Part shown: positions 15,554-51,205 of the stretch, in pieces | Numbering within the stretch: position 1 is the first letter of the stretch | Layout of the letters: each line of letters starts with the position of its first letter | Origin: a virus | Strand: one strand, 5' to 3' | IMG/VR virus record: IMGVR_UViG_3300042691_041392 | Length of the DNA stretch: 64,000 nt | The notes under the pieces: model-generated | Database searches by the model: none | Told to the model about the DNA's origin: nothing | What the model saw: the letters and a program-made list of their open reading frames with translations, nothing else | Program-made: the position numbers and the translations under genes

Positions 15554-15767
15554 TTAAAATCTTTTTAATTTTAAAATCTCTTTTATCAGATTTTTCAAGA
15601 GGTTCTAAGTAGATTTCACCATCTGAAATCCTAACCTCCCATTTACCTCCAGTTTTATCATCTAATAAAACTAGTTTCTTAACTATTACATTTCCATCTG
15701 GATCAACTAAAATTGATGAATCTCCATTTGGAGTGTTTATTTCAAATCTATTTGGTTTAATTGCCAT
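15546..15767 (-). CDS. Hypothetical protein with C-terminal RDxK tag
   Basis: Ends RDFKIKKILND. Confidence 0.6.
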   Translation of the reverse strand: MAIKPNRFEINTPNGDSSILVDPDGNVIVKKLVLLDDKTGGKWEVRISDGEIYLEPLEKSDKRDFKIKKILND

Positions 15768-16461
15768 TTAAAAGTTTATCTATTTTTTCGTCTCTCATTT
15801 GAGATAATAGAATTAGTGATGATTTTTGAAACTCATCATCTATAACATAAACTACTTCATTATCACTTATTTCAAAATAAAAATCATAACTAATAATTAT
15901 TTTTGGTTGAAAAGTTGCTTCACTACGAACTTCATATTGAAAATTATTTATGTTAAATCGTATATCATTAAATAAATAAATCATTTCATCATCCCACCTA
16001 AGATATGGATCAACATAAACTTCAAAATCTAAATACTTACCAACTGGATAAATATAACCATTTGTATTCAATGTGTTTTTAGATAATTTGAAATTAAAAA
16101 AATGAAAAGATGATGAGTCTTGTAACTCAGCTGACAATCTAGCACAACTAACTAAATTTTTATACTTATATTTTGATAAATATAAGCTAGTTATGTTTAA
16201 TTTTTCATAATAACCAATATTTCTCAAATCGATAAAACCTTTATTATATTTCATCTCTTTGAATATATACTTAATTAAAGTTCTTAAAATCTCATATTTA
16301 ATCTGACTAATAAATTTATCTATATATTCATCAGTCATTGGAACTGAAACTGAAATACTCACACTATTTTTATTAGACGTTATTTTATCATCTAAAATTA
16401 AAAAGTCTTTGTTTTCAAAACTTAAAGATTTGATTATATTTTCTATTAAATCACTATACAT
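15757..16461 (-). CDS. Truncated, divergent paralog of the major capsid protein with C-terminal RDxK tag
   Basis: LSAELQD...LNTNGYIYPVG...VYVDPYLRWDD...SEATFQP aligns with MCP LAAALQD...LNGQGQLYPVG...IYVDPYMKYND...SEATFAP; ends RDEKIDKLLNGN. Confidence 0.75.
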   Translation of the reverse strand: MYSDLIENIIKSLSFENKDFLILDDKITSNKNSVSISVSVPMTDEYIDKFISQIKYEILRTLIKYIFKEMKYNKGFIDLRNIGYYEKLNITSLYLSKYKYKNLVSCARLSAELQDSSSFHFFNFKLSKNTLNTNGYIYPVGKYLDFEVYVDPYLRWDDEMIYLFNDIRFNINNFQYEVRSEATFQPKIIISYDFYFEISDNEVVYVIDDEFQKSSLILLSQMRDEKIDKLLNGN

Positions 16462-17527: not shown

Positions 17528-18169
17528 ATGATTATATACAAAATATCTAATATAATAAATGATAAGATCTATATAGGTCAGACAATAGAGACATTGGATA
17601 AGAGGTGGAGAAGACACACATGGAAGTCAACTATAAAAAGAAATGTAATGGCTATAACCAATGCGATTATAAAATATGGTGTGGAAAATTTCATGATAGA
17701 GGAAATTGATAGTGCTGAAAATATAGAGGAGTTAAATATGAAAGAGGAATATTACATAAAATATTATGATTGTATATCACCAAAGGGTTATAATATAAAA
17801 AATGGTGGTGATAATAAAAAATTATCAGAGGAGACTAAACTAAAAATTAGCATTTCGAATAAAGGTAAAAAAAGAACAAAGGAAACTATAAAAAAACTAT
17901 CAGATTCACACAAAGGATGGGTTCCATCAGAGGAAACAAAACAAAAATGGAGAGATGCGTTTGGTGGTAAAAAACCATCTGACAACACTATAAATGCAGC
18001 TATAGAAGCAAATCAGAAGGAATACACACTTTTAAATCCGGATGGTGAACTTATAACATTTATAAATATGGCAAAGTTTTGTAAGGAAAACAATTTATCA
18101 AATTCTAAATTGTGCTTAGTTGCTAGTGGTAAGATAAAATCGCATAAAGGTTGGACAAAACCTATTTAA
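17528..18169 (+). mobile_element. Free-standing GIY-YIG homing endonuclease with NUMOD3 repeats
   Basis: IIYKI...IYIGQT, E in NMKEEYYI, GYN, and SEETK repeats; inserted antisense between NADAR and the methylase. Confidence 0.85.
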
Positions 18170-18668
18170 AAAATTGTTCTAAACCAGTTTTCTTTTCAAT
18201 TCCTCTTAGTTCATCACGAACTTTCATAAGTATTTTACCAAGATGATTTTTACCTTTATTTCCACACTTTTCACAATAACATGACCCATAAAAATTGTCG
18301 TGCCAATAATTACCTTCGATTAGCTGAAGATCTTCTGTGTTTAATAGAAGTTCTGATAAATTATCATTTTTGAATTTTTCTCTAACACCCCAATTCATGA
18401 ACTCTAATTTCTTTTCATCCCAATCACTACGAACTTTTAACTTTTGACCAAGTTTTTTAACGTGACCTGGACTTGGTGTTTTCGCAATCATTTCTTTAAA
18501 GTCAGCAGGTGTGTAATAAATACCATTTATCATTTGATCATTTTTACATTTTTGTGCTACATAGAAATGTTCTACACTTGGATATTTAATTCCTTGATGT
18601 TCTATTTCAACTGGATAGAAATTGGATAGAAAATTCCATCTACCATCAAATCTATTTATATAACTCAT
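18162..18668 (-). CDS. NADAR family (YbiA-like) hydrolase
   Basis: FLSNFYP...YPSVEHFY.AQK...KF...LIEGNYWHDNFYG...GKNHLGKILMKVR. Confidence 0.9.
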   Translation of the reverse strand: MSYINRFDGRWNFLSNFYPVEIEHQGIKYPSVEHFYVAQKCKNDQMINGIYYTPADFKEMIAKTPSPGHVKKLGQKLKVRSDWDEKKLEFMNWGVREKFKNDNLSELLLNTEDLQLIEGNYWHDNFYGSCYCEKCGNKGKNHLGKILMKVRDELRGIEKKTGLEQFFK

Positions 18669-18681
18669 AGTATTTTATATG

Positions 18682-18709
18682 AAAAAACCCCACAATGTTG
18701 TGGGGTTTT
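18682..18709. terminator. Intrinsic terminator downstream of the tmRNA
   Basis: AAAACCCCACAA-tg-TTGTGGGGTTTT. Confidence 0.8.
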
Positions 18710-18715
18710 AATTTG

Positions 18716-19080
18716 TGGAGAAGACCCGGTACCGCCCCGGGTGTACTACTCAGATGACAACAATTAATCTTCACAGGTTTAGTAGAGTTTTTCTAAACTT
18801 ACAAAATAGTTAGTTGAACTGACCCATCACTCTAACAATTCTGGTTTCACATTTGGTCTGTGTGATACAGTTGGAGAATTTTTTCGATTAGTTTCTCTTA
18901 AACTAACTCTGGAGTGTTAACTCCAATTGCTTTTAGGGTCGCTACTAAATCTTCACGAGATCCTACTTCATTTGTGTTGCCATTTACGACAGTTATCGAT
19001 TAATTTATAAATCGGACATTCGACAACCCGATACCTGCATAATCACCACCAATCTGCTAGGCGAATCTAATGACTTCCCC
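18716..19080 (-). ncRNA. ssrA: tmRNA (one-piece); tag reading frame 18981-18898 encodes GNTNEVGSREDLVATLKAIGVNTPELV*
   Basis: 365 nt; 5' GGGGAAG pairs with 3' CUUCUCC-A including G3:U; GAUUCG D-loop-like segment; P2 helices CAGAU/AUCUG and GCAGGU/ACCUGU; T-arm ACCCGG-GGCGGUA-CCGGGU; UAAAU-GGC resume context; CCA not encoded. Confidence 0.88.
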
Positions 19081-19102
19081 ATATTGTTTGTAATTATTTC
19101 TA

Positions 19103-19134
19103 CAAATGTATATATAATATTTTAAATATACAAA
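19103..19134 (-). promoter_or_regulatory. Bacteroidota-type housekeeping sigma promoter for the tmRNA
   Basis: TTTG(19134-19131)-N20-TACATTTG(19110-19103). Confidence 0.65.
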
Positions 19135-19157
19135 AAAGTTGAAAATTTTATTAAAAA

Positions 19158-19183
19158 AAATAACTCACCAAAGTGAGTTATTT
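19158..19183. terminator. Intrinsic terminator after the peptidase
   Basis: AAATAACTCAC-caaa-GTGAGTTATTT. Confidence 0.7.
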
Positions 19184-19189
19184 AATATT

Positions 19190-21034
19190 TTAGAATACAT
19201 CAGTATCATCTGGCATATCACCATCATCCATTGAGTAGAAGTTGAATATAAATAGTGGTTCTACTTTTCTTGTTTCCCATATATCACATTCCAAATCAAA
19301 ATCAATTAAGACATCTTTATCAATTTTCTTTATAACTTCATAGATATGAATAACTTCATCAAGTTTATAAAAATAATTAACCATTCCGTATGTTGTTGGT
19401 ATAATTTGAACTTTTAAATTCATACCAGTATTTGTTACTTCACAGTTTTTGATACCAGCTTGAGTAATCATTTTTCTCAAAAGATATTTAAGATTATCAA
19501 TATCATCAGTGTTATTATCGTCATCATCTTCATATTGATCATAATCCTCTTCCTCTTCATCATCCCATCTATCCCACTCTTCATTTAAGAATTGGTCATA
19601 TTTCTTCAATTTATTTGACTCATAAGGATCATTATAAGTTCTATTAGTCTTAGATGAACTATCTTTACCCAATATAATTTGTAAATATGTCTCATCAAAT
19701 AAACAAGAAGTTGGTCTTTTGTGAAGTTTCATAACATTTCTAAGTTCTTTTAAACTTTCTAAAATGGTATCAATATCTTCATTTTCTAAATCAAAGTTTA
19801 CATAAACATTACCGTGATCAGTTGAAATAGTTTTATCTAAATTAACTCCTTTTAAAGCATCGACAAATTCTTTATTTGATGTTTTAACATTAGATATCAT
19901 CTGTTTAATAGCCGCTCTATCTTGAATAGTTCTCACAACTGGTAAGTTAGCCCAATCTACATTAACAGAAGCTTTACATAAATCTATTAAGTAATCCATA
20001 TTTTGAATTTCTTTACCAGTATGCTCATTTAAATAACCAACTGAAACGTTTGTACATTCAGGAATATCATCTATAAATGAAGCTGAATCGGTGAATACAC
20101 CAGTAGGGTCAATTTTCAAATTCAATCCACTTGCGTTATATTGTTCACAAAGTGCGTTACCAAATTCATCAGAACAACATCTACCACCAGCTTGTGCGGT
20201 AATAACAGAAATTGTTTTTCTTCTATCAAAAGAAACACATCTTTTAATATTTTTCAAATAACTAACTTCATCATATTTATCAGCTAAAGCTCTAGAACCA
20301 ATACCACCTCTTTCTTCTCCGATAAAGAAGTAATAAAGACCTGGTACATTTTTAGCCATCATATATAACATAACAGTTGTTCCTGCTTTATCATCAGCAC
20401 CTAATACTGTTGTTCCATCAGTTACGATGTGTTCTTGTTCATCAATTTGAACAGAAAAAAGTCTTGTAACAGCTTGTTTTCTATCGGCTGTATCTAAGTG
20501 ACAAGTAAACATAGTTGTTGGATTGTCACCAATTATTTTATAATAGTTACCAACAATATCTTTACTTAATTCAGGTAGGAATTGAAGAACTTCATCTTCA
20601 TGTCCATGTGGATAAGTTTTAGTAACTAATGAAAGGAATGTAGATCTTGGATCTAATGGATTATATTCAAATGTAGGAACCTTAATTGGAATTTTTTCAT
20701 CTTCAACAGATTCTCCTTTTTTAACTTTATTATACAAAGTAACAAAGTTTTGAATATCTTCTGATGTAAAATAATTATGAAAATAATATCTAATAAAGTT
20801 ACCACATTTCATATCAACTGTTCCTTTATCTTTTGTTGTTACTTTAAAATGAAAATCTTTATCAGAAACATCAACATTTGTTATTTTCAATCCATTGAAA
20901 TATTCTGTATCTTCATCATCTAAACATAATATTTCAAAAGCAATATATTCATTCATATCATTAAGCTTTTCTAATACATCTATTAAAGCTTTTGATAATT
21001 TTATTTTTGGTAAGTTTGTTGGTTCTCCCGCCAT
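19190..21034 (-). CDS. M28/M20-type zinc metallopeptidase with N- and C-terminal extensions
   Basis: CHLDT, LGADDKAG, GEERG, FDR, FTDS and NEHT metal-binding motifs. Confidence 0.8.
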   Translation of the reverse strand: MAGEPTNLPKIKLSKALIDVLEKLNDMNEYIAFEILCLDDEDTEYFNGLKITNVDVSDKDFHFKVTTKDKGTVDMKCGNFIRYYFHNYFTSEDIQNFVTLYNKVKKGESVEDEKIPIKVPTFEYNPLDPRSTFLSLVTKTYPHGHEDEVLQFLPELSKDIVGNYYKIIGDNPTTMFTCHLDTADRKQAVTRLFSVQIDEQEHIVTDGTTVLGADDKAGTTVMLYMMAKNVPGLYYFFIGEERGGIGSRALADKYDEVSYLKNIKRCVSFDRRKTISVITAQAGGRCCSDEFGNALCEQYNASGLNLKIDPTGVFTDSASFIDDIPECTNVSVGYLNEHTGKEIQNMDYLIDLCKASVNVDWANLPVVRTIQDRAAIKQMISNVKTSNKEFVDALKGVNLDKTISTDHGNVYVNFDLENEDIDTILESLKELRNVMKLHKRPTSCLFDETYLQIILGKDSSSKTNRTYNDPYESNKLKKYDQFLNEEWDRWDDEEEEDYDQYEDDDDNNTDDIDNLKYLLRKMITQAGIKNCEVTNTGMNLKVQIIPTTYGMVNYFYKLDEVIHIYEVIKKIDKDVLIDFDLECDIWETRKVEPLFIFNFYSMDDGDMPDDTDVF

Positions 21035-21071
21035 CTTTTAAAATTTCTTTTTTTGTATATATTAAATTCAA

Positions 21072-21686
21072 TTAATGAGTTATTTCAACTCTACCTTTAG
21101 AATATCTAACATACCTACTATTTGTATGATCTACCTGCACTTGACCAGTTACAGATCCTTGTTTTTTACTAACATAATCTTTTGTACAAACAACTATATC
21201 ACAATTTGAAAGGTCATTTAAAGAATATTTCTTTTTTTCATTACTTTCCATCTTTTCTAAATGACTGTTTTTTTTAACTATGTCAGCAGCTTGTAGAATA
21301 ACATTCTCTGGTATAATATCATCTTTTAATGTTTTAATTATAAGATGAGTTCCAATAATTCTATCACCAGTAACTTCTTCACCATTAGTTTTATAATAGT
21401 GATCAGGATTTTTTATACTTGTAGCGTGCATCCAAATATCATTTTTACTAGGCTCTGAACCACCGATTGGGTTAGCAAATTTACCGGAATACATAGTGGT
21501 TAGAAAATCATTACTTTTAGCATTTCTACCCCAATAGACATCATATACATTTTCTGGATTATTCGAATCTGATATTTTTTTATGTTTTATATCATAACCA
21601 TCCAATTTGAATTGTTCTAAATCACTTTTTGGAGTGCTTGTAGATGTCTCATATACTTTAAACGTTTTAAATCTTTTAATTCTCAT
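21072..21686 (-). CDS. Stand-alone NFACT-R (DUF814, RqcH/Rqc2 RNA-binding) domain protein
   Basis: GRNAKSNDFLT...DIWMHA...GTHLII...ILQAADIV..NS...YVSK..G...GQV matches the NFACT-R pattern GRN..QND.LT...D.W.H...GSHV....AA.LA..YS..YV.K. Confidence 0.7.
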   Translation of the reverse strand: MRIKRFKTFKVYETSTSTPKSDLEQFKLDGYDIKHKKISDSNNPENVYDVYWGRNAKSNDFLTTMYSGKFANPIGGSEPSKNDIWMHATSIKNPDHYYKTNGEEVTGDRIIGTHLIIKTLKDDIIPENVILQAADIVKKNSHLEKMESNEKKKYSLNDLSNCDIVVCTKDYVSKKQGSVTGQVQVDHTNSRYVRYSKGRVEITH

Positions 21687-21720
21687 AGTTTATATATTAA
21701 AATTGAAAAATGTATAAACA

Positions 21721-21748
21721 AAAAAAACTCTCCATCAGGAGAGTTTTT
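21721..21748. terminator. Terminator after the major capsid gene
   Basis: AAAAAACTCTCC-atca-GGAGAGTTTTTT. Confidence 0.8.
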
Positions 21749-21765
21749 TATATCTTTATTAACTA

Positions 21766-23517
21766 TTAGTTAAGTAATTGATTTCTATCAGTTACAACGA
21801 TAGTCATAAATTGTTTTTGTGGGAACCAACCAACTTCAGCTACTGCGTATCTAGATCTTAGTAACATTCTTGGAGCGAAAGTCGCTTCAGAAATAACTGA
21901 GATAGATTGAGCCATTAAGTAAGGTACGAAGATGATACCTGGTTGATCAGGATTGTTTTTTCTACCTAAAACGATTCTGTTGTCGTTATATTTCATGTAT
22001 GGATCAACATAGATAGAAATATCACCAATTGAACCAACAGGATATAATTGACCTTGTCCGTTTAATTTAGATTTAACTGGGTTAATAGTGTAACCAGCGA
22101 TATCTTGTAAAGCTGCAGCTAATCCCCCGTTTGTGATTAAGTATTGAGCTGGACCTACACGACCTTCAGTTGCGATGTAGTTAGAAGCGTGAGCAATCTT
22201 AGTGATTAACTTTCTTTGAACAGCGTGTGTAGTTTCACCTGTTACAGCAGCACTAGCATAAGCTGTGTTTAAGTCAAAGATTGTTGAAGCAGAACCAGTA
22301 ATTAAAGTACTTGATAAAGAAGTATTTAATGGAGCTGATGTTCTGTTTAACGCACCCATCTCAAAGATTTTAGCAACGATTTGTTTAGAAATTGTTTGAG
22401 ATAACTCGTTAACAAGGATAGATTCCATTTTTTGAACGATATCCATACCTGTGTTAGCTTTAATATCTTCAATTTCTGTTCTTCTTAAAGCTGAAGATAC
22501 TTCAATAGTACCAACTGCGATAGTTTTAGAAGAAATTTTTGGTCCGATAACACCAGCGTAAGAGTCATCGTCAGCATCTCTACCCATTGGGTAAGAACCA
22601 GCAGCGTTAGAAGTAGCAACACCTGTCCAGTTTGCAGAGAAACCAGGGATATGATCTTCTAATGCAGATACTAATTCAACAGTTTTTGTACTTGCACCTG
22701 ATACAGAGTGAGTACCAACAAGAACGATTTGAGATGACATAGAAGCCGTAGCTGAGAATGTATTTCTTGTAGAGTCAAAAGCCCAAGCAGTTGTAAATTG
22801 GTTTACACCTGTGTGAGATGTGTTAGCTTGTCTGTAAGCTCTGAAGATTGGGTAACCATCGATACGAGAGAAACCTAAGAACTCAGCGTAAGCAGCTTTG
22901 TTTGAAGGCTCAGTTTGAGTAAACTCACCACCTACTGGTGCTTCAGATCCTGCTGTGTTAGATGCAGTACCTAAAGTAACCCATACTCTACCACCTTGAA
23001 GACCACCACTTGTTTGAGTAATGTTATATCCAGATAATTTAGTGTTTAATGTTGTAGTAACATTTCCTAATGTAGTAGAGTCTAAGTTTAATTTGAAAAC
23101 TTGTGGTCTCTCATCAGATGCGCCTAATCTTGTATCATCATATTGGAAATCAATATAAAGTAAATCAATTTTCGGACCTGGAGAAGGTTTAACAGCTACT
23201 AAATCTAAACCGATTGTTTGAGCAGCGATTTTCATAGCTACTGGTAAAAGGTTTTGACCAACGTCTCCTGAACCAGCAACACCACCCCAGTTTGCACCAA
23301 CTGTAACACCTGAAGGTGTATTTGAACCAATAACTGGATTTAAAACAGCACCCATACCTGCTACGTTAGAAGCATTTACATATGCATTTTCATTGATTGA
23401 GTGAAACTCAGCGTATTCCGCCATCCATTCAACTCTATCACCTGTAACTCCCATGTTCTCAAGAACCGGAGCCCATTTCTTAGTTGCTTTCGCTTTGTCT
23501 ATTCTAATGTGTGACAT
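21766..23517 (-). CDS. gp23: Major capsid protein (T4 gp23-like)
   Basis: KKWAPVLE, IGLDLVAVKP, IYVDPY, FVPY and RSRYAV gp23-family motifs; biased codon usage; probable maturation site SINE. Confidence 0.9.
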   Translation of the reverse strand: MSHIRIDKAKATKKWAPVLENMGVTGDRVEWMAEYAEFHSINENAYVNASNVAGMGAVLNPVIGSNTPSGVTVGANWGGVAGSGDVGQNLLPVAMKIAAQTIGLDLVAVKPSPGPKIDLLYIDFQYDDTRLGASDERPQVFKLNLDSTTLGNVTTTLNTKLSGYNITQTSGGLQGGRVWVTLGTASNTAGSEAPVGGEFTQTEPSNKAAYAEFLGFSRIDGYPIFRAYRQANTSHTGVNQFTTAWAFDSTRNTFSATASMSSQIVLVGTHSVSGASTKTVELVSALEDHIPGFSANWTGVATSNAAGSYPMGRDADDDSYAGVIGPKISSKTIAVGTIEVSSALRRTEIEDIKANTGMDIVQKMESILVNELSQTISKQIVAKIFEMGALNRTSAPLNTSLSSTLITGSASTIFDLNTAYASAAVTGETTHAVQRKLITKIAHASNYIATEGRVGPAQYLITNGGLAAALQDIAGYTINPVKSKLNGQGQLYPVGSIGDISIYVDPYMKYNDNRIVLGRKNNPDQPGIIFVPYLMAQSISVISEATFAPRMLLRSRYAVAEVGWFPQKQFMTIVVTDRNQLLN

Positions 23518-23551
23518 AATTAATTTATTTTTTTTTATTTTTTTTATAATC

Positions 23552-23597
23552 TATATATTACCTTAATTTTACTCGTTTTTTTCAAGTGTGGATTTTT
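23552..23597 (-). promoter_or_regulatory. Late promoter TAATATATA with upstream GAAAAAA..GAGT element
   Basis: AAAAATCCAcacttGAAAAAAACGAGT...TAATATATA before the MCP; similar at 25746-25790. Confidence 0.6.
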
Positions 23598-23603
23598 TAT
23601 AGA

Positions 23604-25712
23604 TTAGATGTTTTTGAATCTTTCCATAATAGCATTTACATCATTGTCAGATAATTTATCTTCTTGAATTAAAGCATCATGTGAAACTAATTTTTTAGTT
23701 ACAGATTCATTTGTTTTAAGATTTCTAGTTGCCCAGAAATGCTCAATTTGTGACTCAGTTGTTAACATTTCAGCTGGGTATAATCTAGCTTGTGATAACA
23801 TAGATTTTTTAGCTGATTCATTTAACTGATTCCAGATAGCCTTAGTGTTTTCAGGCATCATTCTGATAACTCTTTCTTCTAGAGTTTCATTTTTAGTTGA
23901 TAATGCTTCAGAAATTAATGAAAGAACTTCTTTTTGTGTGAAGTAACTTCTTTCGTTTATGTGAAGTTTAACAGTTTCTTGTTCTTCATTAGTTAAAGCA
24001 TAGTAACTATCAACTTGTGATTTAGATAAGAATTTTAAGAAATTCAAATCTGATGTCTCGGAAACTTTACGTTTTTTAGCCTCTTCGATTAATTTATTAA
24101 TAGATTCAGATAATTCAGAATCATTGTCACCAGAAACTTCATAGTCCATTGGTCCACATTCTTCATCATCTTCTTCATCTTCTTCGTGTGCATAAGCCTC
24201 TTCAGAACCTACGTGAGAAATACCATTGTATTCTTCTTCATCTTCGTTTTCTTCTTCAGAACCCCAAGCTTCTTCTTCATCCTCATCTTCTAAAGAAGAA
24301 AAACCAGCAGCGTTTAATGTTGGGAAAGCTTCTTCAGCAGATTCGAATAATTTACCACCGTTTAATTTCTCAGCAATCATCCCAGCGTAAGAGATTGATT
24401 TGTCTAAGTTCTCAGCGATATATTCAGAGTAAGCGATATTATCATCTAAGTGTTCAGCGATATATTCTGAATAAGCGATATTACCTTCTACGTGCTCAGC
24501 TAAATACTCAGAGTAAGCAATTGAATTATCAACGTGCTCAGCGATATATTCAGAGTAAGCGATGTTTTTATCTAAGTTTTCAGCGATGTATTCAGAGTAA
24601 GCGATATTCTTATCTAAATTCTCAGCGATATACTCAGAGTAAGCGATGTTTTTATCTAAGTTTTCAGCGATATACTCAGAATAAGAGATATTCTTATCTA
24701 AGTTTTCAGCGATATACTCAGAGTAAGCGATGTTTTTATCTAAGTTTTCAGCAACGTATTCAGAATAAGCGATATTCTTATCTAAATTCTCAGCTAAATA
24801 CTCAGAGTAATTAACAGCTTTTTCTAGATTTTCAGCTAAATAGTCATTGTGTTTAATAAGTTTGTCAGTTGTTTCTTTTAACGACTTGTTCTCATTAACC
24901 ATAATTTGAACTTTTTCAGCTAAATAATCTAAATACTTAACAACTTGAGAATTAGTAGTGTTTAATTCATCATAATACTCAAGTAGTTGTTCTAATTTCT
25001 TAGGGCTTAAGTTACCTTTAGAAATAGCATTCTTAACTTCTTTCTTTGTAGAAGCTAATTCATTAACTAAATACTTAGAGTAATCAGTTAATTGTTGCTT
25101 AGTAACAAACTCATTTTTGTTCATGTTAAATAGATCATTTATTTTTGACTCATCGGACATTTCATATATCCTAAAGTTGGATTGTGGATTATCATAACCT
25201 AGTGATTCATTAAGTGTTTTAACACTCATTTTAGCTGAAGCAAAACCTGGATCAGCAACTATATCATAAGTAAATAATTTCTTTAACGAAACTGATCCGT
25301 CAGACTCAGTAATACCTGCGGCTCTAGAAGAAACAAAAACAGGACATCCGTCATCGACCAATGCCTTAGCTTCTTTACCCCAATAAGTACTTAATAATCT
25401 GATTTCACCAGTGACATTATTAGCCTCTTTAACATAGTTAGCTTTAGTAATTATGTGTGAAGCCCTTGAAAGAGATGTGTCAAATACGTCTGGATGGTCA
25501 AATTCACCATACACAGCACCTAACCCATTCATCCTTTCGTTAAGTTCTTGTAGAGCTGGTAAGAATTTTTCAGCTGTATAAATTCTTTCATTACGGTTTT
25601 TAACACCGAATTCTGTAAATATACCACCTAATACATACTTATCTTTACTCACCGAATTATTCTCAACAATAAGAGAATTAGTTGAATTTTCTACAATTAA
25701 GACTGGTTTCAT
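23604..25712 (-). CDS. gp21: Prohead protease (gp21-like) fused to a coiled-coil scaffold
   Basis: KNRNERIY, GEFDHP, VSSRAAG and YDIVADPGF in the first ~170 aa, then 14-aa repeats and an acidic region. Confidence 0.85.
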   Translation of the reverse strand: MKPVLIVENSTNSLIVENNSVSKDKYVLGGIFTEFGVKNRNERIYTAEKFLPALQELNERMNGLGAVYGEFDHPDVFDTSLSRASHIITKANYVKEANNVTGEIRLLSTYWGKEAKALVDDGCPVFVSSRAAGITESDGSVSLKKLFTYDIVADPGFASAKMSVKTLNESLGYDNPQSNFRIYEMSDESKINDLFNMNKNEFVTKQQLTDYSKYLVNELASTKKEVKNAISKGNLSPKKLEQLLEYYDELNTTNSQVVKYLDYLAEKVQIMVNENKSLKETTDKLIKHNDYLAENLEKAVNYSEYLAENLDKNIAYSEYVAENLDKNIAYSEYIAENLDKNISYSEYIAENLDKNIAYSEYIAENLDKNIAYSEYIAENLDKNIAYSEYIAEHVDNSIAYSEYLAEHVEGNIAYSEYIAEHLDDNIAYSEYIAENLDKSISYAGMIAEKLNGGKLFESAEEAFPTLNAAGFSSLEDEDEEEAWGSEEENEDEEEYNGISHVGSEEAYAHEEDEEDDEECGPMDYEVSGDNDSELSESINKLIEEAKKRKVSETSDLNFLKFLSKSQVDSYYALTNEEQETVKLHINERSYFTQKEVLSLISEALSTKNETLEERVIRMMPENTKAIWNQLNESAKKSMLSQARLYPAEMLTTESQIEHFWATRNLKTNESVTKKLVSHDALIQEDKLSDNDVNAIMERFKNI
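24360..24850 (-). repeat. 42-bp coding tandem repeat (YSEYIAENLDKNIA x10 plus degenerate flanks)
   Basis: Read directly from the translation. Confidence 0.9.
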
Positions 25713-25889
25713 GTAAAATAGTTATTTTTTGTATAAATTATAGTGTATATATTGCCTTATCAAACTCCTCTTTTTTCTATATGGATTTTTTACAGTAACT
25801 AAATTTTATAAATACCAAAAGGCTTTTTAAATCATGATTTTTAAAACATTTTCAAAATGAAAAATAAAATACATGTATATTTATATAAA

Positions 25890-26288
25890 ATGATTCTAAC
25901 TAGAGAAATAGATGTAAAGATTAGTGAGTCCAATTTTCATTACTATGAAGACTTAGGATATGATATAGGATTGGGTGAGGTTATTACCATACCAGTAGAA
26001 TTACTTTCGAAAGGTTCCCATCATAAAATAAAGTGCCAATGTGATAGTTGTGGTATAGAAAAACAGGTTATATATAAAAACTATCTTAAATACGACAATA
26101 AGAATTGGGGAGACTATTTTTGTAGAAAATGTTCAGAAATAAAAAGAAAAGAAACACTAAGAAAAAACTTTGGTGTTGATTATCCTATACAAAATAAAAA
26201 AGTATTATCTAAAATGAAAAATACCTTAGTTGAAAAATACGGTGTAGATAATATATCAAAAAAGAATAAAATAAATAAAGATGGCTAA
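25890..26288 (+). CDS. Zn-finger protein resembling homing-endonuclease DNA-binding modules, no nuclease domain
   Basis: CDSC...CRKC and FGVDYP/YGVDNI repeats; start moved to ATG 25890. Confidence 0.55.
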   Translation: MILTREIDVKISESNFHYYEDLGYDIGLGEVITIPVELLSKGSHHKIKCQCDSCGIEKQVIYKNYLKYDNKNWGDYFCRKCSEIKRKETLRKNFGVDYPIQNKKVLSKMKNTLVEKYGVDNISKKNKINKDG

Positions 26289-28185
26289 ATACAATGAAGG
26301 AGATATTCTTGAATCTCAAATAGAATTCTCCGTTAGCGGAAATGCAACTGTCAAAGTTGATGGAAAAGAATTTTTCGTACATAAAAAGAGAACGTTAAAT
26401 TCACTACACTTAGATAAAGTAAGATTTGTTCTCTTTAAAGGAGAAAAAAAATTAGAAGCAAAAGTAATAGAGGTAGTTGAAAGATTTAAATTAGAATTTG
26501 TAGGAACTACTCAAGTTAAAAAAGATCACACATTTGTTATACCAGATAACTCAAAAATACACGTTGACTTTTATATAAAAGGTAAACACTCAGCAGAAGA
26601 TAATCAAAAAGTACTTGTTAAATTTGATAGTTGGGAAAACGGTCAAAAATCACCAAATGCTAAAATTGTTAAAATTTTAGGAACTGTTGGTGAGAATGAA
26701 ACCGAAATGAACGCTATTATGTATGAATATAACTTACCAGTGGATTTCCCACAAGAAGTTTTAAATGAATCAGAGTTAATATCAGAAGTTATTACTGAGA
26801 AAGAGATATCTAAAAGAAGAGATTTGAGAAATATAACTACAATCGGTATCGATCCGTTTGATTCAAAAGATGCTGATGATACAATCGGATTAGAATTTAA
26901 AGATGGTAAAAGATATGTTTCTATAAATATCGCAGATGTTACACACTATATAAAACCAGGAAGTGCCTTAGATGAAGAAGCTTATAAAAGATCATCTTCT
27001 GTTTATTTAGTTGATAGATGTGTGCCAATGATACCAAAAAGATTGAGTAATGGTATATGTTCTTTAAAATCAGGTAGTGATAAACTATGTTACTCTGTTA
27101 TAGTTGAATTAGATACAAATGGTAGAATTGAAAACACTTGGTTTGGTAGAACTATTGTAAACGTAAATAAAGACTATTCTTATGAAATGGCTCAAGAAGT
27201 TATCGACAGAGGAACAGCATCAGAAGAAAATAAAGATTGTGATGAGGTTATTTTAGAATTACACAGATTAGCTTTAAAAATGAGAAGAAGAAGAATGTTA
27301 GGAGGTTCCATGGAAATTGGTGGTGTTGAAGTTAAATTCAAATTAGCTGATGATAATAAAAAACCAATTGGACTTTATTTAAAAGAACAAAAAGAAGCTA
27401 ATCACTTAATAGAAGAATATATGTTATTAGCGAATAGAGAAGTTGCTAAGTTTATTAAGTCTAGAGGGTTACCTTGTGTTAATAGAATTCACGAAGAACC
27501 GGATGAAACTAAATTAGAACATATTAAAACATTCATATCAACTTTAGGATATGAAGTAAATTACGGTGATACACCTGAGAAGACTAAATTAGTTATAAAT
27601 GAACTAATGAAAAGTTGCAAAGGAACTAGTGAGGAAAACATCATTACAACTTTAATAGTTAGAGCTCAGCAAAAGGCTAAATATACAACTAGAAACATTG
27701 GTCATTATGGTTTGGGATTTGAACACTATTCACACTTCACAAGTCCGATTAGAAGATATAGTGATATGTTGACACATAGATTATTATCAATGGCATTGAA
27801 AAGTGAGGGATATAGTAAAGATGTTAAACCAAACGAATTAGAAAAACAATGTGAGTGGATATCTAAACAAGAAGTAGTATCAGCAAAAGCTCAAAGAGAT
27901 TCTATTAAGTATAAACAAGCTGAATACTTAGGAGACAGAATTGGTCAAGTTTTTGATGGAATTGTTTCAGGTGTATTAGATAGAGGAATCTATGTAGAAT
28001 TGTTTGAAAGTAAATGTGAAGGTTTAATAAAACTAAGTAGTTTAGAAGGAAAATGGATGGCTTATCCAGATAATTACTATGCTGTTAGTGATTTAGGTGA
28101 TAAAGTTAGATTAGGTGATCCAATAAAGGTTGTTGTTAAGTCAGTTGATTTAGAAAAGAAACAAATCGATTTTTTAAAATTTTAA
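26281..28185 (+). CDS. rnr: Ribonuclease R (RNB family)
   Basis: IDPFDSKDADD, IADVTHY, LIEEYMLLAN, HYGLGF..YSHFTSPIRRYSD and a C-terminal S1 domain. Confidence 0.92.
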   Translation: MAKYNEGDILESQIEFSVSGNATVKVDGKEFFVHKKRTLNSLHLDKVRFVLFKGEKKLEAKVIEVVERFKLEFVGTTQVKKDHTFVIPDNSKIHVDFYIKGKHSAEDNQKVLVKFDSWENGQKSPNAKIVKILGTVGENETEMNAIMYEYNLPVDFPQEVLNESELISEVITEKEISKRRDLRNITTIGIDPFDSKDADDTIGLEFKDGKRYVSINIADVTHYIKPGSALDEEAYKRSSSVYLVDRCVPMIPKRLSNGICSLKSGSDKLCYSVIVELDTNGRIENTWFGRTIVNVNKDYSYEMAQEVIDRGTASEENKDCDEVILELHRLALKMRRRRMLGGSMEIGGVEVKFKLADDNKKPIGLYLKEQKEANHLIEEYMLLANREVAKFIKSRGLPCVNRIHEEPDETKLEHIKTFISTLGYEVNYGDTPEKTKLVINELMKSCKGTSEENIITTLIVRAQQKAKYTTRNIGHYGLGFEHYSHFTSPIRRYSDMLTHRLLSMALKSEGYSKDVKPNELEKQCEWISKQEVVSAKAQRDSIKYKQAEYLGDRIGQVFDGIVSGVLDRGIYVELFESKCEGLIKLSSLEGKWMAYPDNYYAVSDLGDKVRLGDPIKVVVKSVDLEKKQIDFLKF

Positions 28186-28683: not shown

Positions 28684-30435
28684 TTAAAATTCAAACTCAC
28701 TACCACCTTGAGCACCACCACCTTGAGCTGGAGGAGCTTCGGGAGCCGCTTGTCCACCACCTTGAGCAGGAGCCTCAGGAGCCGCTTGTCCACCGGCTTG
28801 AGCACCACCTTGAGCACCCATTTCACCACCGACTTGAGCACCACCTTGAGCACCCATTTCACCACCGACTTGAGCACCACCTTGAGCACCCGGAGCGGCT
28901 CCGGCGCCAGCAGCATCTTTAGCCCAATATTTCTGGTTTTCAGCTTTTTCTTCAGGTGTTAATTTAAATACGTGATCCATTATCCATTCAATATGGAAAT
29001 AAGGTTTTTCACCATTCATAATACCAGTAAGTGTACCAATTGCTTCAGCTCTTTTAGCTAAATTATTAATCTTTTTCCACTCTTCAAAAATTTGATTTGA
29101 GTTGAAATCAATATCTATCTCATTCATTATAATATCATCTTCTCTGAGTTCTGGAAATTCAACTAACATTTGTAGTTTAAGAGGTTTTACTATAATTTCT
29201 TTAAAATTTGCTCTTAATCTACCAATAAAATTATGAAACTTAACTTCATCATTTGTCATACCAGCTTGATCAGCAACAAAAGTACCACCACCACCTTCAG
29301 CTTCAAATCGATTAATTGGAATTTTAGAAGCTCTTTTAAGTGCCATGTGAAACCACTTCAACATACCATCTTCATTTATATCATGTCCTTGAGGAGCAAC
29401 TAATTCCATATTAGGAGTACCAGCATCACCATCAGGAAACCATACTTGTTTATTATACGGAATATGTTTAGCACCATTTATAGAAATTGTACCCAATGTA
29501 TCATCAAATTCAATTTCTTCTGAATAATCTTGTATCAATTGACCTATTTGTTCTTCCGCCTTTTGTCTAGATAAACCTTTGATCGGAATAGTAAATTTTT
29601 GATAGACAGTAGCATTCATTATATTAAACATAATTCTTGTTTGCTCAAGAATTTTTAACTGGTTATAAGGTTTAATTAAACCTTCAACATATGAAGTCTC
29701 AGAAAAATCATTTTGAGTTGAATATGAAATAAATGCTATTTGAGAATCTAAAAATATTCTTCTCAACTGCGGATCTTCAGGAAACTGAATCCATAAGTGA
29801 CCAACGTTTGGTTCATAAGCTGGTACAATACTTTCTGGTTTTAACCTATTAAATGCGATTATATTCTTCTTTTTATCATCCCAAACTAATTCAACTGCCA
29901 AATAACCATCTATAAGAAAGTCTCTCATCATGTTAAAAGCAGTAACACTATCTGAAAATCCAAACTTATTATATATTTTTTCAAAAAATTCTTGATATTT
30001 ATCTTTTATATCTTGTGAATAGTCAGAAGATAATGGTGATGGTGAACAAAAGTCTTTAGTATCATTATAAACAATGGACTCATCCGCGATAGCACTAATA
30101 AAATCTCTAATTTCATCTTTAATTGAATATTCTCTTAGTATTCTTCTTTTATCAGGATAAGACTTATCCAAATAAGGTATAGATTTTCTATTTAAAACCG
30201 AAGCAACCGCTCTTTGAGAAAAGAAGTCATACATTGAACTACCTCTCGCTGCATAAGGATCTTCGTTAATACCAACACCAACTTGATTTCTGATGATCAT
30301 ATCATCGTAGTTCATACCATAGTTAGATAAGTTTCTTAATATTCTACTAAAAAGACCTTTATTTTCTACAGCGGAATTCACAAAACCCATTCCACCTTGA
30401 GAGTTATTATTATTTGTATAATTATATGAAGCCAT
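28684..30435 (-). CDS. gp20: Portal protein (T4 gp20-like) with Gly/Ala/Gln-rich tail
   Basis: IDGYL, SYVEGLIKPYNQLKILE, KAEEQI, LKRASKIP.NR and DEVKFHNFIGRLR motifs. Confidence 0.88.
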   Translation of the reverse strand: MASYNYTNNNNSQGGMGFVNSAVENKGLFSRILRNLSNYGMNYDDMIIRNQVGVGINEDPYAARGSSMYDFFSQRAVASVLNRKSIPYLDKSYPDKRRILREYSIKDEIRDFISAIADESIVYNDTKDFCSPSPLSSDYSQDIKDKYQEFFEKIYNKFGFSDSVTAFNMMRDFLIDGYLAVELVWDDKKKNIIAFNRLKPESIVPAYEPNVGHLWIQFPEDPQLRRIFLDSQIAFISYSTQNDFSETSYVEGLIKPYNQLKILEQTRIMFNIMNATVYQKFTIPIKGLSRQKAEEQIGQLIQDYSEEIEFDDTLGTISINGAKHIPYNKQVWFPDGDAGTPNMELVAPQGHDINEDGMLKWFHMALKRASKIPINRFEAEGGGGTFVADQAGMTNDEVKFHNFIGRLRANFKEIIVKPLKLQMLVEFPELREDDIIMNEIDIDFNSNQIFEEWKKINNLAKRAEAIGTLTGIMNGEKPYFHIEWIMDHVFKLTPEEKAENQKYWAKDAAGAGAAPGAQGGAQVGGEMGAQGGAQVGGEMGAQGGAQAGGQAAPEAPAQGGGQAAPEAPPAQGGGAQGGSEFEF

Positions 30436-42412: not shown

Positions 42413-42691
42413 ATGGCAAAAACTAAAGAACAAGTAGAGTCAAAAGTAGAAGAGATTTTATCCAAACCATATCGTTTAGATCTTCACAATGACGATTTTA
42501 ATTCTTTTGATTGGGTAATCACTTGCCTAATGAAAGTATGTAAACATGAATATGAACAAGCTAACCAATGTGCTTTTATAGTTCATCATAATGGTGTTTG
42601 TGATGTTAAATATGGAGACTATGAGACTATCTCTGATATGAAAGATAAACTACAAAATGCTGGTTTATCAGTAACAATGGAAGCTAATTAA
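42413..42691 (+). CDS. clpS: Clp protease adaptor ClpS
   Basis: LHNDDFNSFDWVI..L...QA.QCA.IVH..G...VK.G. Confidence 0.88.
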   Translation: MAKTKEQVESKVEEILSKPYRLDLHNDDFNSFDWVITCLMKVCKHEYEQANQCAFIVHHNGVCDVKYGDYETISDMKDKLQNAGLSVTMEAN

Positions 42692-50645: not shown

Positions 50646-50673
50646 AAAAAAGACCTCATTTGAGGTCTTTTTT
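50646..50673. terminator. Bidirectional terminator
   Basis: AAAAAAGACCTC-attt-GAGGTCTTTTTT. Confidence 0.8.
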
Positions 50674-51205
50674 ATTTCAATTTATTTATTTTATCTCTTA
50701 AAATGGCAGCTTTTTCATAATCTTCATTTTCTAAACATAAAATCAATTCAGATTCCATTTGTTTTAACAGTTTAGATATTTTAGAATCTAATAATTGTTT
50801 TTCTTTGATAAGTGAATCAACATCAAATGTTTCATCTTTAGATTCTTTAGATTCTACTACTTTATCAGTTACTTTAACATCTGATCTATTTTTTGGTTTC
50901 TTAGTATCGAAAACAGTTGGTTTCATTTTCAACAAACTATCCTTTTCTTTTTTAGAAAGAATAATACCATCATTGATGACCAATCCTTTATAAGTAAACG
51001 CATTATTAACTCCCATATCAGATTTAAGCATATAACCAACATCAATACCATTTACATCATCTAACCACAATTTAGCAAATCCATCTTTTTTTAACTTTTG
51101 AAGACAACCATCAACTAGATTTAACTTCTCAGTTACAACTGATAATTGTTGATCATTATACATTCTCAAATCAATCAATTTAATATTTAAATCTTTTATG
51201 TTCAT
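50672..51205 (-). CDS. Early protein with C-terminal UVR (UvrB/C) motif
   Basis: LENEDYEKAAILRDKI. Confidence 0.7.
   Translation of the reverse strand: MNIKDLNIKLIDLRMYNDQQLSVVTEKLNLVDGCLQKLKKDGFAKLWLDDVNGIDVGYMLKSDMGVNNAFTYKGLVINDGIILSKKEKDSLLKMKPTVFDTKKPKNRSDVKVTDKVVESKESKDETFDVDSLIKEKQLLDSKISKLLKQMESELILCLENEDYEKAAILRDKINKLK

What the first reader, a model, noticed from the sequence alone, without database searches (positions are those of the whole stretch)
18716..28185. Ribosome-rescue/quality-control toolkit interleaved with head genes
Seen: tmRNA, an M28 peptidase and a stand-alone NFACT-R domain lie in a row downstream of the capsid gene. RNase R is on the other side of the head genes, and ClpS and a UVR-motif protein are elsewhere in the window. 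Known: RNase R degrades nonstop mRNA during trans-translation, RqcH (NFACT) is the parallel Ala-tailing pathway, and ClpS and UVR-motif proteins engage Clp ATPases. Inference: the phage rewires both rescue pathways and downstream proteolysis. No smpB is visible here.
Basis: partly seen in the sequence, partly recalled or inferred. Interest (0 to 1): 0.7.

Follow-up and report, generated by a model that had tools for sequence, protein, structure and literature searches.

The report
Hidden phage tmRNA beside ribosome-rescue genes
A huge uncultivated phage carries its own ribosome-rescue RNA (tmRNA), which the standard detection programs miss; next to it lie a rare stand-alone ribosome-binding domain, a peptidase and an RNA-degrading enzyme, but whether these genes act together is not shown.

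Summary
At 19080-18716 (minus strand) lies a genuine tmRNA. It has an acceptor stem with G3:U in 20/20 homologues, a T arm, a long P2 helix and two pseudoknots. Its 29-31-codon tag frame ends at a TAA in a hairpin. Of 76 pairs, 38 show compensatory changes (slid controls 9-13). ARAGORN and Rfam miss it here and in every relative tested, including two published 634-642 kb phages, so this is a cryptic tmRNA family.

Upstream lies a probably co-transcribed pair. One gene is a stand-alone NFACT-R protein with an intact DWH motif and a CCDC25/RqcH fold. The other is a clan-MH exopeptidase closer to PepT/M42 than to M28. The RNase R-type enzyme (no Lys-rich tail), ClpS and the UVR-motif protein are also real. 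Complete relatives add SmpB, ClpP, an Hsp100 and a CCA-adding enzyme, but no NFACT-N.

Phage-encoded trans-translation is well supported. An integrated "toolkit" is not:
- The units have separate terminators.
- RNase R and the tmRNA block move independently in relatives.
- A more distant relative (LR756504) has the genes dispersed and lacks NFACT-R.
- The peptidase domain is a 4-6-copy paralogue family.

Earlier notes of this scan concern this same genome only, not other DNA.

The parts
18716..19080 (-). tmRNA (365 nt without CCA). One-piece form, acceptor GGGGAAG/CUUCUCC with G3:U, discriminator A, T-loop GGCGGUA, P2, PK1, tag, helix 5, PK2 and further helices.
   Evidence: Alignment A3 of 20 distinct homologues. 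RNAalifold gave 59 pairs. A 76-pair structure including PK1 and PK2 gave 94.6% paired cells and 38 pairs with compensatory change. ARAGORN and Rfam were negative.
18898..18987 (-). Tag reading frame inside the tmRNA: resume codon GUA, 29 codons, stop UAA in the helix-5 hairpin. Tag: (A)VNGNTNEVGSREDLVATLKAIGVNTPELV.
   Evidence: The frame is open to a TAA in all 24 homologues and indels are multiples of 3. 35% of codon differences are synonymous, against 8% and 2.5% in the other two frames.
19081..19140 (-). Promoter-like region of the tmRNA: AACTTTTTTG ... TATTATATATA, then TACATTTG, then a short leader.
   Evidence: The AAACTTTTTTG-N-TATTATATATA motif lies upstream of 20/20 homologues; TAnnTTTG lies upstream of 14/20.
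18680..18712 (-). Intrinsic-terminator-like hairpin (CCCCAC/GUGGGG plus a U run) directly after the tmRNA 3' end.
   Evidence: Read from the sequence. It is not listed by the consensus scan, probably because A-U pairs extend the stem.
19158..19183 (-). Terminator-like hairpin after the peptidase gene, separating it from the tmRNA.
   Evidence: 11 pairs, followed by a T run.
19190..21034 (-). 614-aa clan-MH dinuclear metallopeptidase. It has an N-terminal domain, a PepT/M42-like catalytic core at about residues 125-370, a small C-terminal domain, and an acidic extension after residue 460 seen in a minority of relatives.
   Evidence: The metal ligands H179, D181, D214, E240/E241, D270 and H338 are invariant in 16 orthologues.
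21072..21686 (-). 204-aa stand-alone NFACT-R protein. It is a divergent copy with four insertions; the DIWMH (DWH) motif is kept.
21722..21749 (-). Terminator-like hairpin after the major capsid gene.
   Evidence: 12 pairs.
21766..23517 (-). Major capsid protein, Gp23 family.
   Evidence: PF07068, 2e-27.
23604..25712 (-). Prohead protease (S77/gp21-like) with a long C-terminal extension.
   Evidence: phrog_207, 1e-31; the Pfam S77 match is weak.
25857..26288 (+). Conserved 143-aa gene upstream of the RNase R gene and overlapping it (DUF7487; weak resemblance to homing endonucleases).
   Evidence: It is 67-82% identical in relatives.
26281..28185 (+). RNase R-type 3'-5' exoribonuclease (CSD1-CSD2-RNB-S1). 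It has no N-terminal HTH and no Lys-rich tail.
28684..30435 (-). Portal protein (gp20 family), which closes the head block.
   Evidence: PF07230, 7e-57.
42413..42691 (+). ClpS adaptor, 92 aa. The N-D-D and His residues of the N-degron pocket are present.
   Evidence: PF02617, 64.6 bits; sequence.
50672..51205 (-). 177-aa protein with a C-terminal UVR motif (residues 145-177).
   Evidence: PF02151, 36 bits.

Best explanation
The window comes from a huge (Mahaphage-type) phage that encodes its own trans-translation RNA. The tmRNA is a one-piece molecule made from its own promoter and terminator.

How it most likely works (inferred steps marked):
1. The 3' end is trimmed and CCA is added; CCA is not encoded. 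(Inferred.)
2. Alanyl-tRNA synthetase charges the RNA through the invariant G3:U pair. (Inferred.)
3. The RNA is delivered by a phage SmpB, which is found in all four complete or near-complete relatives but not in this window. (Inferred.)
4. It frees ribosomes stalled on broken mRNAs in the infected cell and adds a phage-specific tag of about 30 residues. (Inferred.)

The other genes are real and plausibly serve the same need. The RNase R-type exonuclease would clear RNA fragments or trim the tmRNA precursor. The stand-alone NFACT-R protein with an intact DWH motif would bind large ribosomal subunits or peptidyl-tRNA. The clan-MH exopeptidase and ClpS would handle peptides. None of these roles is tested.

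Their interleaving with the head genes is a gene order inherited within one clade, not an operon. Only NFACT-R and the peptidase look co-transcribed. The other units are separately terminated and move independently in relatives.
For: tmRNA:
- Anatomy and covariation.
- Coding signature of the tag frame.
- Own promoter-like motif in 20/20 homologues, and flanking terminators.
- About 90 homologous loci in IMG/VR and two published genomes.

Partners in complete relatives:
- SmpB above curated cut-offs in LR745206, LR756502, LR756504 and a 476 kb IMG/VR contig.
- CCA-adding enzyme, RNase R, ClpS, ClpP, Hsp100.

NFACT-R:
- The profile hits B. subtilis RqcH residues 447-553 at E 1e-22 and CCDC25 at 5e-12.
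- The fold search returns only NFACT-R proteins in the top 14.
- D-I-W-x-H is invariant.

Gene order:
- NFACT-R and the peptidase are adjacent in 68/68 further loci, 37 nt apart here, with terminators before and after the pair.
- RNase R is elsewhere in LR756502 and absent from that position in L063.
- The tmRNA-NADAR-Dam block is inverted in four loci.
- LR756504 has a canonical tmRNA beside tRNA genes, far from its capsid gene, and no NFACT-R.
Against: - No SmpB, AlaRS or CCA-adding enzyme can be shown for this phage itself, because no genome is held.
- The T-loop (GGCGGUA) departs from the usual tRNA-type loop, and standard models score the RNA near zero. Function as a chargeable tRNA mimic is therefore inferred, not shown.
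- The tag does not end in Ala-Ala here (ELV), so its fate, degradation or something else, is unknown.
- NFACT-R, the peptidase and the tmRNA stay together in 59 of 68 loci, including a subclade where at least 4.4 kb separates them from the capsid gene. That could reflect a functional link which I rate low.
Confidence: 0.7

Rival explanations
1. Integrated toolkit. The tmRNA/SmpB, RNase R, NFACT-R, peptidase, ClpS and UVR protein form one coordinated system. It takes over both bacterial rescue routes (trans-translation and RqcH Ala-tailing) and channels the products into Clp proteolysis.
For: - All components except NFACT-R are present in every complete relative, including the distant LR756504.
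- The NFACT-R-peptidase-tmRNA trio is kept in 59/68 loci.
- RqcH-size NFACT-R proteins occur in 75 of 101 sampled genomes of the phylum of Niabella (Bacteroidota), the phylum Al-Shayeb et al. predict as host for the >634 kb relatives (PMC7162821). A host pathway to interfere with probably exists.
Against: - The genes are separate transcription units, and no shared promoter motif was found.
- RNase R and the tmRNA block relocate independently.
- NFACT-R is absent from LR756504, which keeps everything else.
- RNase R lacks the Lys-rich domain needed for its trans-translation role in E. coli (PMC4176180).
- The peptidase domain is a 4-6-copy family.
- The phage Hsp100 lacks the N-domain that ClpS binds in ClpA.
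- The genomes compared are close kin, so co-occurrence is weak evidence.
Confidence: 0.2
2. The NFACT-R protein is a Jlp2-like release factor, possibly delivered with the DNA. It would bind large subunits carrying peptidyl-tRNA and hydrolyse the ester bond using the His of the DWH motif. The co-transcribed exopeptidase would then trim the released peptides. This is compatible with the best explanation.
For: - Yeast Jlp2, a stand-alone NFACT-R protein, releases peptides from ribosome-bound peptidyl-tRNA. Its His44 (CCDC25 His41) is essential (bioRxiv 10.1101/2025.09.04.673968).
- By my alignment, that His is the His of the DIWxH motif, and the phage family keeps D-I-W-x-H invariant.
- The best fold match is CCDC25.
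Against: - B. subtilis RqcH also has the DWH motif. There it is needed for 50S binding at the A-site finger (bioRxiv 10.1101/2020.09.03.281279). The His therefore does not distinguish a hydrolase from a binder.
- The phage profile is closer to RqcH (E 1e-22) than to CCDC25 (E 5e-12).
- No biochemical data exist for any bacterial or viral stand-alone NFACT-R.
- Packaging into the head is speculation.
Confidence: 0.25
3. The neighbours are unrelated cargo. RNase R and the peptidases would scavenge host RNA and protein for building blocks, or mature virion components. NFACT-R would have some other RNA-binding role. Only the tmRNA concerns ribosome rescue.
For: - The peptidase domain occurs 4-6 times per genome with different flanking domains.
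- RNase R lacks the ribosome-recruitment tail.
- These genomes carry hundreds of auxiliary genes.
- The neighbours of the tmRNA on its other side are a NADAR protein, a homing endonuclease and a Dam methylase, which have nothing to do with translation.
Against: - Every NFACT-R protein studied so far acts on ribosomes or tRNA.
- RNase R has documented links with tmRNA (PMC4176180).
- The NFACT-R-peptidase pairing is stable in 68/68 loci.
Confidence: 0.3
4. The RNA is not a working tmRNA. It would be a remnant of an integration site, or a decoy that titrates host SmpB.
For: - Phage DS6A carries little more than a tRNA-like domain, which may titrate SmpB (PMC4131195).
- Standard tmRNA models fail on this RNA.
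Against: - The architecture is full length, and the pseudoknots covary.
- The tag frame is under coding selection.
- It has its own promoter and terminator.
- Relatives encode their own SmpB.
Confidence: 0.04

Closest known systems
Bacterial one-piece tmRNA (SsrA; Rfam RF00023) with SmpB
   Same: It has an Ala-type acceptor stem with G3:U and a T arm, and a long P2 helix in place of an anticodon arm. PK1 lies upstream of the resume codon, the short ORF ends at a stop in helix 5, and further pseudoknots follow. SmpB is present in relatives.
   Different: It scores below 10 bits against RF00023, and ARAGORN does not find it. The T-loop is GGCRGUR, as in the Rfam alphaproteobacterial consensus. 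No CCA is encoded. The tag is 29-31 residues and in most members does not end in Ala-Ala. The resume codon is GUA/UUA/UCA rather than GCN.
Alphaproteobacterial two-piece tmRNA (Rfam RF01849)
   Same: The T stem-loop and 3' acceptor strand match the family consensus (CCGGG-GGCgGUA-CCCGG ... CUCCA) almost letter for letter.
   Different: The gene here is not circularly permuted. The match is only 9 bits and local. None of the 80 best cellular SmpB matches kept is named as alphaproteobacterial.
Previously reported phage tmRNAs: mycobacteriophage Bxz1 group and Bacillus phage G (PMC4131195); huge-phage tmRNA plus SmpB (Al-Shayeb et al. 2020, PMC7162821)
   Same: These are also virus-encoded tmRNAs, and in huge phages they occur together with SmpB and many other translation genes.
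   Different: Al-Shayeb et al. called their tmRNAs with ARAGORN, which reports nothing at this locus in LR745206 and LR756502. This family was therefore probably not counted. It sits inside the head-gene block next to NFACT-R.
NFACT-R domain of RqcH (B. subtilis; PDB 7AQC, 7AS8) and stand-alone NFACT-R proteins CCDC25/Jlp2 (PDB 7EOE)
   Same: Same fold and same DWH motif. Like CCDC25/Jlp2, it has no NFACT-N and no coiled coil.
   Different: It is viral. The usual form is 127-138 aa; the window copy carries four insertions and is 204 aa. It is paired with a metallopeptidase gene. Its activity is unknown.
RNase R (TIGR02063)
   Same: It has the CSD1-CSD2-RNB-S1 architecture. The RNB Asp cluster and RRYxD motif are present. 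It scores far higher for RNase R than for RNase II models.
   Different: It lies just under the equivalog cut-off (583.8 against 597.85). It lacks the N-terminal HTH and the C-terminal Lys-rich domain.
PepT tripeptidase (M20B; PDB 3GB0) and TET/M42 aminopeptidases
   Same: The catalytic domain fold is shared and all dinuclear-metal ligands are conserved.
   Different: It has extra N- and C-terminal domains. It belongs to a family of 4-6 paralogues per phage genome. Sequence identity to the solved enzymes is only 12-18%.

Membership tests
tmRNA | tRNA-Ala-like acceptor stem with the G3:U70 identity pair | tested here: met
   7 bp. G:U at pair 3 in 20/20 sequences; pairs 5 and 6 covary.
tmRNA | T arm adjoining the acceptor stem | tested here: met
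   6-bp stem, with compensatory changes in 4 pairs. The 7-nt loop GGCRGUR equals the Rfam alpha_tmRNA consensus and is not the usual UUCRANY.
tmRNA | Long helix P2 in place of the anticodon arm, and pseudoknot PK1 before the resume codon | tested here: met
   P2 has 24 pairs, 97-100% paired. PK1 stem 1 is invariant. PK1 stem 2 is 91% paired, with 4 of 5 pairs covarying.
tmRNA | Short ORF without a start codon, ending at a stop in helix 5 | tested here: met
   29-31 codons; TAA in all 24 sequences; synonymous-change excess in this frame only. Helix 5 is only 69% paired in the MAFFT alignment.
tmRNA | 3'-terminal CCA | tested here: not met
   The discriminator A is followed by CAA or CUA in all members. 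CCA must be added after trimming. A CCA-adding enzyme is encoded by the complete relatives.
tmRNA | Partner protein SmpB in the same genome | not testable with these tools
   No genome is held for the window. SmpB is present in 4/4 complete or near-complete relatives.
tmRNA | Reaches the Rfam gathering score, or is called by ARAGORN | tested here: not met
tmRNA | Alanylation and tagging activity | not testable with these tools
   Needs biochemistry or proteomics.
NFACT-R domain (PF05670) | Pfam gathering score | tested here: inconclusive
   The window copy scores 20.4 bits against a cut-off of 29.8. Positional orthologues score 52-62 bits. The family profile hits RqcH at E 1e-22.
NFACT-R domain (PF05670) | DWH motif and NFACT-R fold | tested here: met
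   D83, W85 and H87 are invariant. The Foldseek top 14 hits are all NFACT-R proteins.
RqcH/NEMF (Ala-tailing factor) | NFACT-N domain, HhH motifs and coiled coil | tested here: not met
   The protein is 204 aa (127-138 aa in most relatives). PF05833 is absent from all five related records.
RNase R | CSD-RNB-S1 architecture with catalytic RNB motifs | tested here: met
RNase R | NCBIfam equivalog cut-off (TIGR02063) | tested here: not met
   583.8 bits against 597.85. This is a near miss; the RNase II models score 177-204 bits.
RNase R | C-terminal Lys-rich domain required for recruitment to tmRNA-rescued ribosomes | tested here: not met
   The protein ends 3 residues after the S1 domain. The requirement is stated in PMC4176180.
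Peptidase family M28 | Pfam PF04389 gathering score | tested here: not met
   18.1 bits against 21.3. The nearest solved structures are M20B PepT and M42 TET.
Clan MH metallopeptidases | Dinuclear metal ligands H, D, E-E, D, H on the MH fold | tested here: met
   The ligands are invariant in 16 orthologues. Fold match.
ClpS | Pfam PF02617 and N-degron pocket residues | tested here: met
   64.6 bits. The N-D-D and His residues were seen in the sequence.

The most novel reading that the evidence does not exclude
This clade of huge phages runs a self-contained rescue-and-disposal pathway that differs from the host's. A private tmRNA, invisible to current detectors, appends a ~30-residue tag that does not end in Ala-Ala. 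That tag is read by phage-encoded factors rather than by host ClpX. A stand-alone NFACT-R protein acts as a Jlp2-type peptidyl-tRNA hydrolase on split large subunits and is possibly injected with the DNA. It would be the first such release factor outside eukaryotes and the first in a virus.
Probability: 0.15. Interest if true: 0.8.

Novelty: new variant of a known kind. Interest (0 to 1): 0.55.

Why it matters
Phage-encoded tmRNA and SmpB are already known, so the principle is not new. Three things are.

1. A whole tmRNA family escapes both ARAGORN and Rfam. It comprises about 90 loci, including two published genomes of more than 630 kb. Surveys of viral translation genes therefore undercount tmRNAs and may report apparently orphan SmpB genes. 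Its mix of features gives a natural test case for what SmpB, AlaRS and the proteases really need. Those features are an alpha-type T-loop in an unpermuted gene, no encoded CCA, and a long tag without an Ala-Ala end.

2. A stand-alone NFACT-R protein is essentially confined to this clade among 50,697 phage records. A recent preprint asks whether His-bearing NFACT-R domains form a new class of peptide-release factors. This small viral protein is an easy one to test.

3. The data show how far gene adjacency can be trusted. The cluster looks like a toolkit, yet comparative genomics does not support an operon.

Tried and rejected
- ARAGORN and Rfam, at gathering and at E<=10, on the window, on the 401-nt stretch alone and on relatives. 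There was no tmRNA call, only a 9-bit local alpha_tmRNA match.
- A covariance model of the whole RNA was not built. The alignment has 403 columns (limit 400), and a ~365-position model would exceed the calibration time. I used nhmmer profiles instead.
- Searching the window's own genome for smpB, pth and clpP was impossible, because no genome is held. I used complete relatives instead.
- I first inferred from the control genome (B. thetaiotaomicron lacks NFACT-N, NFACT-R and ClpS) that a Bacteroidota host would have no RqcH. I rejected this after sampling 101 genomes of the phylum of Niabella: 75 carry NFACT-R in ORFs of 520-660 aa.
- Donor of the phage SmpB: the best cellular matches are 41-49% identical and spread over many phyla, so no donor or host could be named.
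- Co-regulation through the tmRNA's promoter motif: the motif occurs at only one other site in the window, so no regulon could be claimed.
- The sigma-70 promoter scan was uninformative: 49 sites found against 56 expected.
- The integration-site-remnant or decoy reading was rejected (see rival explanations).


Full report
**What is in the sequence**

The stretch is the head-gene block of an AT-rich huge phage. On the minus strand, in order of transcription, lie:
- the portal gene (28684-30435; gp20 family);
- after a plus-strand insert, a prohead protease with a long extension (23604-25712);
- the Gp23-type major capsid gene (21766-23517);
- a 204-aa ORF (21072-21686);
- a 614-aa ORF (19190-21034);
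- a 470-nt stretch without ORFs;
- a NADAR gene (18162-18668).

The plus-strand insert between portal and protease holds a conserved 143-aa gene, a 634-aa exoribonuclease (26281-28185) and a 152-aa ORF.

The nearest deposited genomes are the uncultured huge phages LR745206 (634 kb) and LR756502 (642 kb), at 66-80% nucleotide identity. LR756504 (636 kb) is more distant. According to Al-Shayeb et al. 2020 (PMC7162821), their genomes of more than 634 kb are Mahaphage-clade phages with predicted Bacteroidetes hosts; the three records above are of that size.

**The tmRNA**

ARAGORN and Rfam report nothing in the window, even at E<=10 on the 401-nt stretch alone. The single exception is a 9-bit local match of the 3' end to the alphaproteobacterial tmRNA model.

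Read by eye on the minus strand, the RNA begins GGGGAAG and ends CUUCUCC-A. This is a 7-bp acceptor stem with G:U at the third pair, preceded by a stem-loop in the T-arm position.

A 15-mer from the conserved core pulled viral contigs from IMG/VR. An nhmmer profile then separated about 30 true homologues from chance hits. A later search added 59 loci, some from contigs already found. None of the 24 distinct sequences tested is called by ARAGORN.

In an alignment of 20 distinct sequences (A3), RNAalifold recovers the standard tmRNA scaffold. I added both stems of PK1 and PK2, helix 5 and one further helix, giving a 76-pair structure. Its statistics are:
- 94.6% of cells paired, against 33-45% when the partners are slid;
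- 38 pairs with compensatory changes, against 9-13 in slid controls;
- none of 500 shuffles reaching the observed values;
- the G:U pair present in 20/20.

The tag frame opens at GUA (UUA or UCA in some members), directly after a GUC in many, as in E. coli. It runs 29-31 codons to a TAA in all 24 sequences, and indels come in multiples of three. Thirty-five per cent of codon differences are synonymous in this frame, against 8% and 2.5% in the other two.

The window's tag reads (A)VNGNTNEVGSREDLVATLKAIGVNTPELV. The first 18 residues are well conserved across the family. The ends vary (ELV, ATV, AVA, VIA, ETA ...).

CCA is not encoded in any member. The RNA has a conserved promoter-like motif upstream in 20/20 homologues. 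It lies between two hairpin terminators. I conclude that this is a real, expressed and coding tmRNA of a divergent family.

**Why it was missed, and what is known**

Al-Shayeb et al. state that huge phages carry tmRNAs and SmpB, and that they called tmRNAs with ARAGORN. ARAGORN finds nothing at the homologous loci of LR745206 and LR756502. The Rfam tmRNA model gives 8.6 bits there.

Both genomes encode SmpB about 130 kb away, well above curated cut-offs. So do LR756504 and a 476-kb, 97%-complete IMG/VR contig. The cryptic RNA is therefore the likely partner of those SmpB genes.

LR756504 has a tmRNA that Rfam does detect (65 bits). It encodes CCA and has a 26-residue tag that starts like the window family (LNDNVN...) and ends AVAA. 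The long tag thus looks ancestral to this group, and loss of the Ala-Ala end looks derived. That RNA lies beside tRNA genes, about 100 kb from the capsid gene.

**The NFACT-R protein**

The window copy is below the Pfam threshold. In relatives the same position holds a compact 127-138-aa protein scoring 52-62 bits for PF05670. The window protein aligns to these with four insertions. It keeps all invariant residues, including D-I-W-x-H.

A profile of the family hits the NFACT-R domain of B. subtilis RqcH at E 1e-22 and human CCDC25 at 5e-12. The AlphaFold model (pLDDT 75) finds only NFACT-R proteins in its 14 best PDB matches, with CCDC25 first. No NFACT-N domain is encoded in any of five related records. 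This is therefore a stand-alone NFACT-R, not an RqcH.

From the literature:
- The RqcH NFACT-R domain touches the A-site finger, and its DWH motif is needed for 50S binding.
- Yeast Jlp2, a stand-alone NFACT-R protein, is reported in a 2025-26 preprint to hydrolyse ribosome-bound peptidyl-tRNA. Its His44 (CCDC25 His41) is essential. I equate that residue with the His of the DWH motif.

Either activity is possible here, and neither has been tested.

Among 50,697 phage records, close homologues occur only in LR745206 and LR756502. The remaining 13 hits are weak (31-51% identity), most of them to short contigs labelled as Firmicute phages.

**The peptidase**

Sequence searches tie residues about 170-250 to PepT tripeptidases. 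The AlphaFold model of residues 1-460 (pLDDT 80) matches PepT and the M42 TET aminopeptidases. All dinuclear-metal ligands are invariant in 16 orthologues. It is a probably active clan-MH exopeptidase; 'M28' names the wrong family within the right clan.

The catalytic domain recurs 4-6 times in each complete or near-complete related genome, with different flanking domains. This weakens any specific tie to the tmRNA. On the other hand, the gene is adjacent to NFACT-R in 68 of 68 further loci. It lies 37 nt from NFACT-R here, with terminators before and after the pair. The two genes are probably co-transcribed.

**RNase R, ClpS and the UVR protein**

The exonuclease has CSD1-CSD2-RNB-S1 domains with intact catalytic motifs. 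It scores 583.8 bits on the RNase R equivalog (cut-off 597.85), against 177-204 bits on the RNase II models. It ends three residues after the S1 domain. It therefore lacks the Lys-rich domain that Venkataraman et al. describe as essential for the trans-translation role of E. coli RNase R.

ClpS (64.6 bits, N-degron residues present) and a C-terminal UVR motif are confirmed elsewhere in the window.

**Co-occurrence and gene order**

- tmRNA, SmpB, RNase R, ClpS, one to three ClpP genes, an Hsp100 of about 710 aa lacking the N-domain, and a CCA-adding enzyme are present in all four complete or near-complete relatives.
- NFACT-R is missing from LR756504.
- Within the window's clade (capsid protein 66-86% identical), the order portal - RNase R - protease - capsid - NFACT-R - peptidase - tmRNA - NADAR - Dam is the rule.
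- It is not fixed, however. RNase R lies 160 kb away in LR756502 and is absent from that site in L063.
- The tmRNA-NADAR-Dam block is inverted relative to the peptidase in four loci.
- In one subclade, at least 4.4 kb separates the capsid gene from the trio.
- In LR756504 nothing is linked.

These genomes are kin, so shared presence says little about joint function.

**Host pathway**

The control genome B. thetaiotaomicron lacks NFACT domains. However, 75 of 101 sampled genomes of the phylum of Niabella (Bacteroidota) have NFACT-R in RqcH-sized ORFs. A Bacteroidota host would therefore probably have RqcH. Interference with that pathway remains possible but undemonstrated. The phage SmpB has no clear cellular donor.

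**Verdict**

A phage-owned trans-translation system is very likely: a cryptic tmRNA here, and SmpB in relatives. The neighbours are genuine, and NFACT-R in particular is unusual. The idea of one coordinated toolkit that rewires both rescue routes and proteolysis rests on adjacency within one clade, and comparative data speak against an operon.

I class this as a new variant of a known kind. Its interest is moderate to good. The two new points are a tmRNA family hidden from standard tools and a viral stand-alone NFACT-R protein that can test a current hypothesis about a new class of release factors.

Noticed in passing
window 13970, 14393, 38066, 39432, 40216, 49114, 53956, 51293, 21072 (gene starts): About ten of 74 ORFs begin with a shared leader of the type M-K/R-Y-L/I-K-x-F-E-x-F. 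The NFACT-R orthologues begin MIKKFxLFE or MRYLNYFE.
   Followed up: partly
window 15757-16461 (-): This 234-aa ORF shares a 97-residue segment (34% identity) with the C-terminal part of the major capsid protein (MCP residues 460-553). The same relation recurs in relatives.
   Followed up: no
window 17528-18169 (+): A GIY-YIG/NUMOD3 homing endonuclease is inserted between the NADAR and Dam genes. Among relatives the same insertion was seen only in L051.
   Followed up: partly
window 18162-18668 (-): A NADAR-domain protein lies directly downstream of the tmRNA. It stays with the tmRNA when the block is inverted in some contigs, and it matches the NCBIfam 'NADAR family anti-phage protein' model weakly.
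   Followed up: no
window 18930-18961 (-) (tmRNA positions 120-151): A conserved hairpin lies inside the tag coding region (alignment columns 123-154). It has compensatory changes (CG/AU split 10:10 at one pair), so part of the tag's conservation may serve RNA structure.
   Followed up: partly
L132 2039-2114 (LR756504): ARAGORN reports a tRNA with a four-base anticodon (tcta) next to tRNA-Met and the canonical tmRNA of LR756504.
   Followed up: no
L163 244-2376 (IMG/VR 476 kb contig) and homologues in LR745206, LR756502: The relatives encode a two-ring Hsp100 (ClpA/ClpB-like, about 710 aa) that starts near ClpA position 146. It therefore lacks the N-domain that ClpS normally binds, even though the same genomes carry ClpS and ClpP.
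   Followed up: partly
window 19190-19660 (-), C-terminal part of the peptidase: The window's peptidase has a 150-residue C-terminal extension with a strongly acidic stretch. Most orthologues lack it; they end near residue 455 with ...YLKIEL. It is present in L095, L213, L215 and L225.
   Followed up: no
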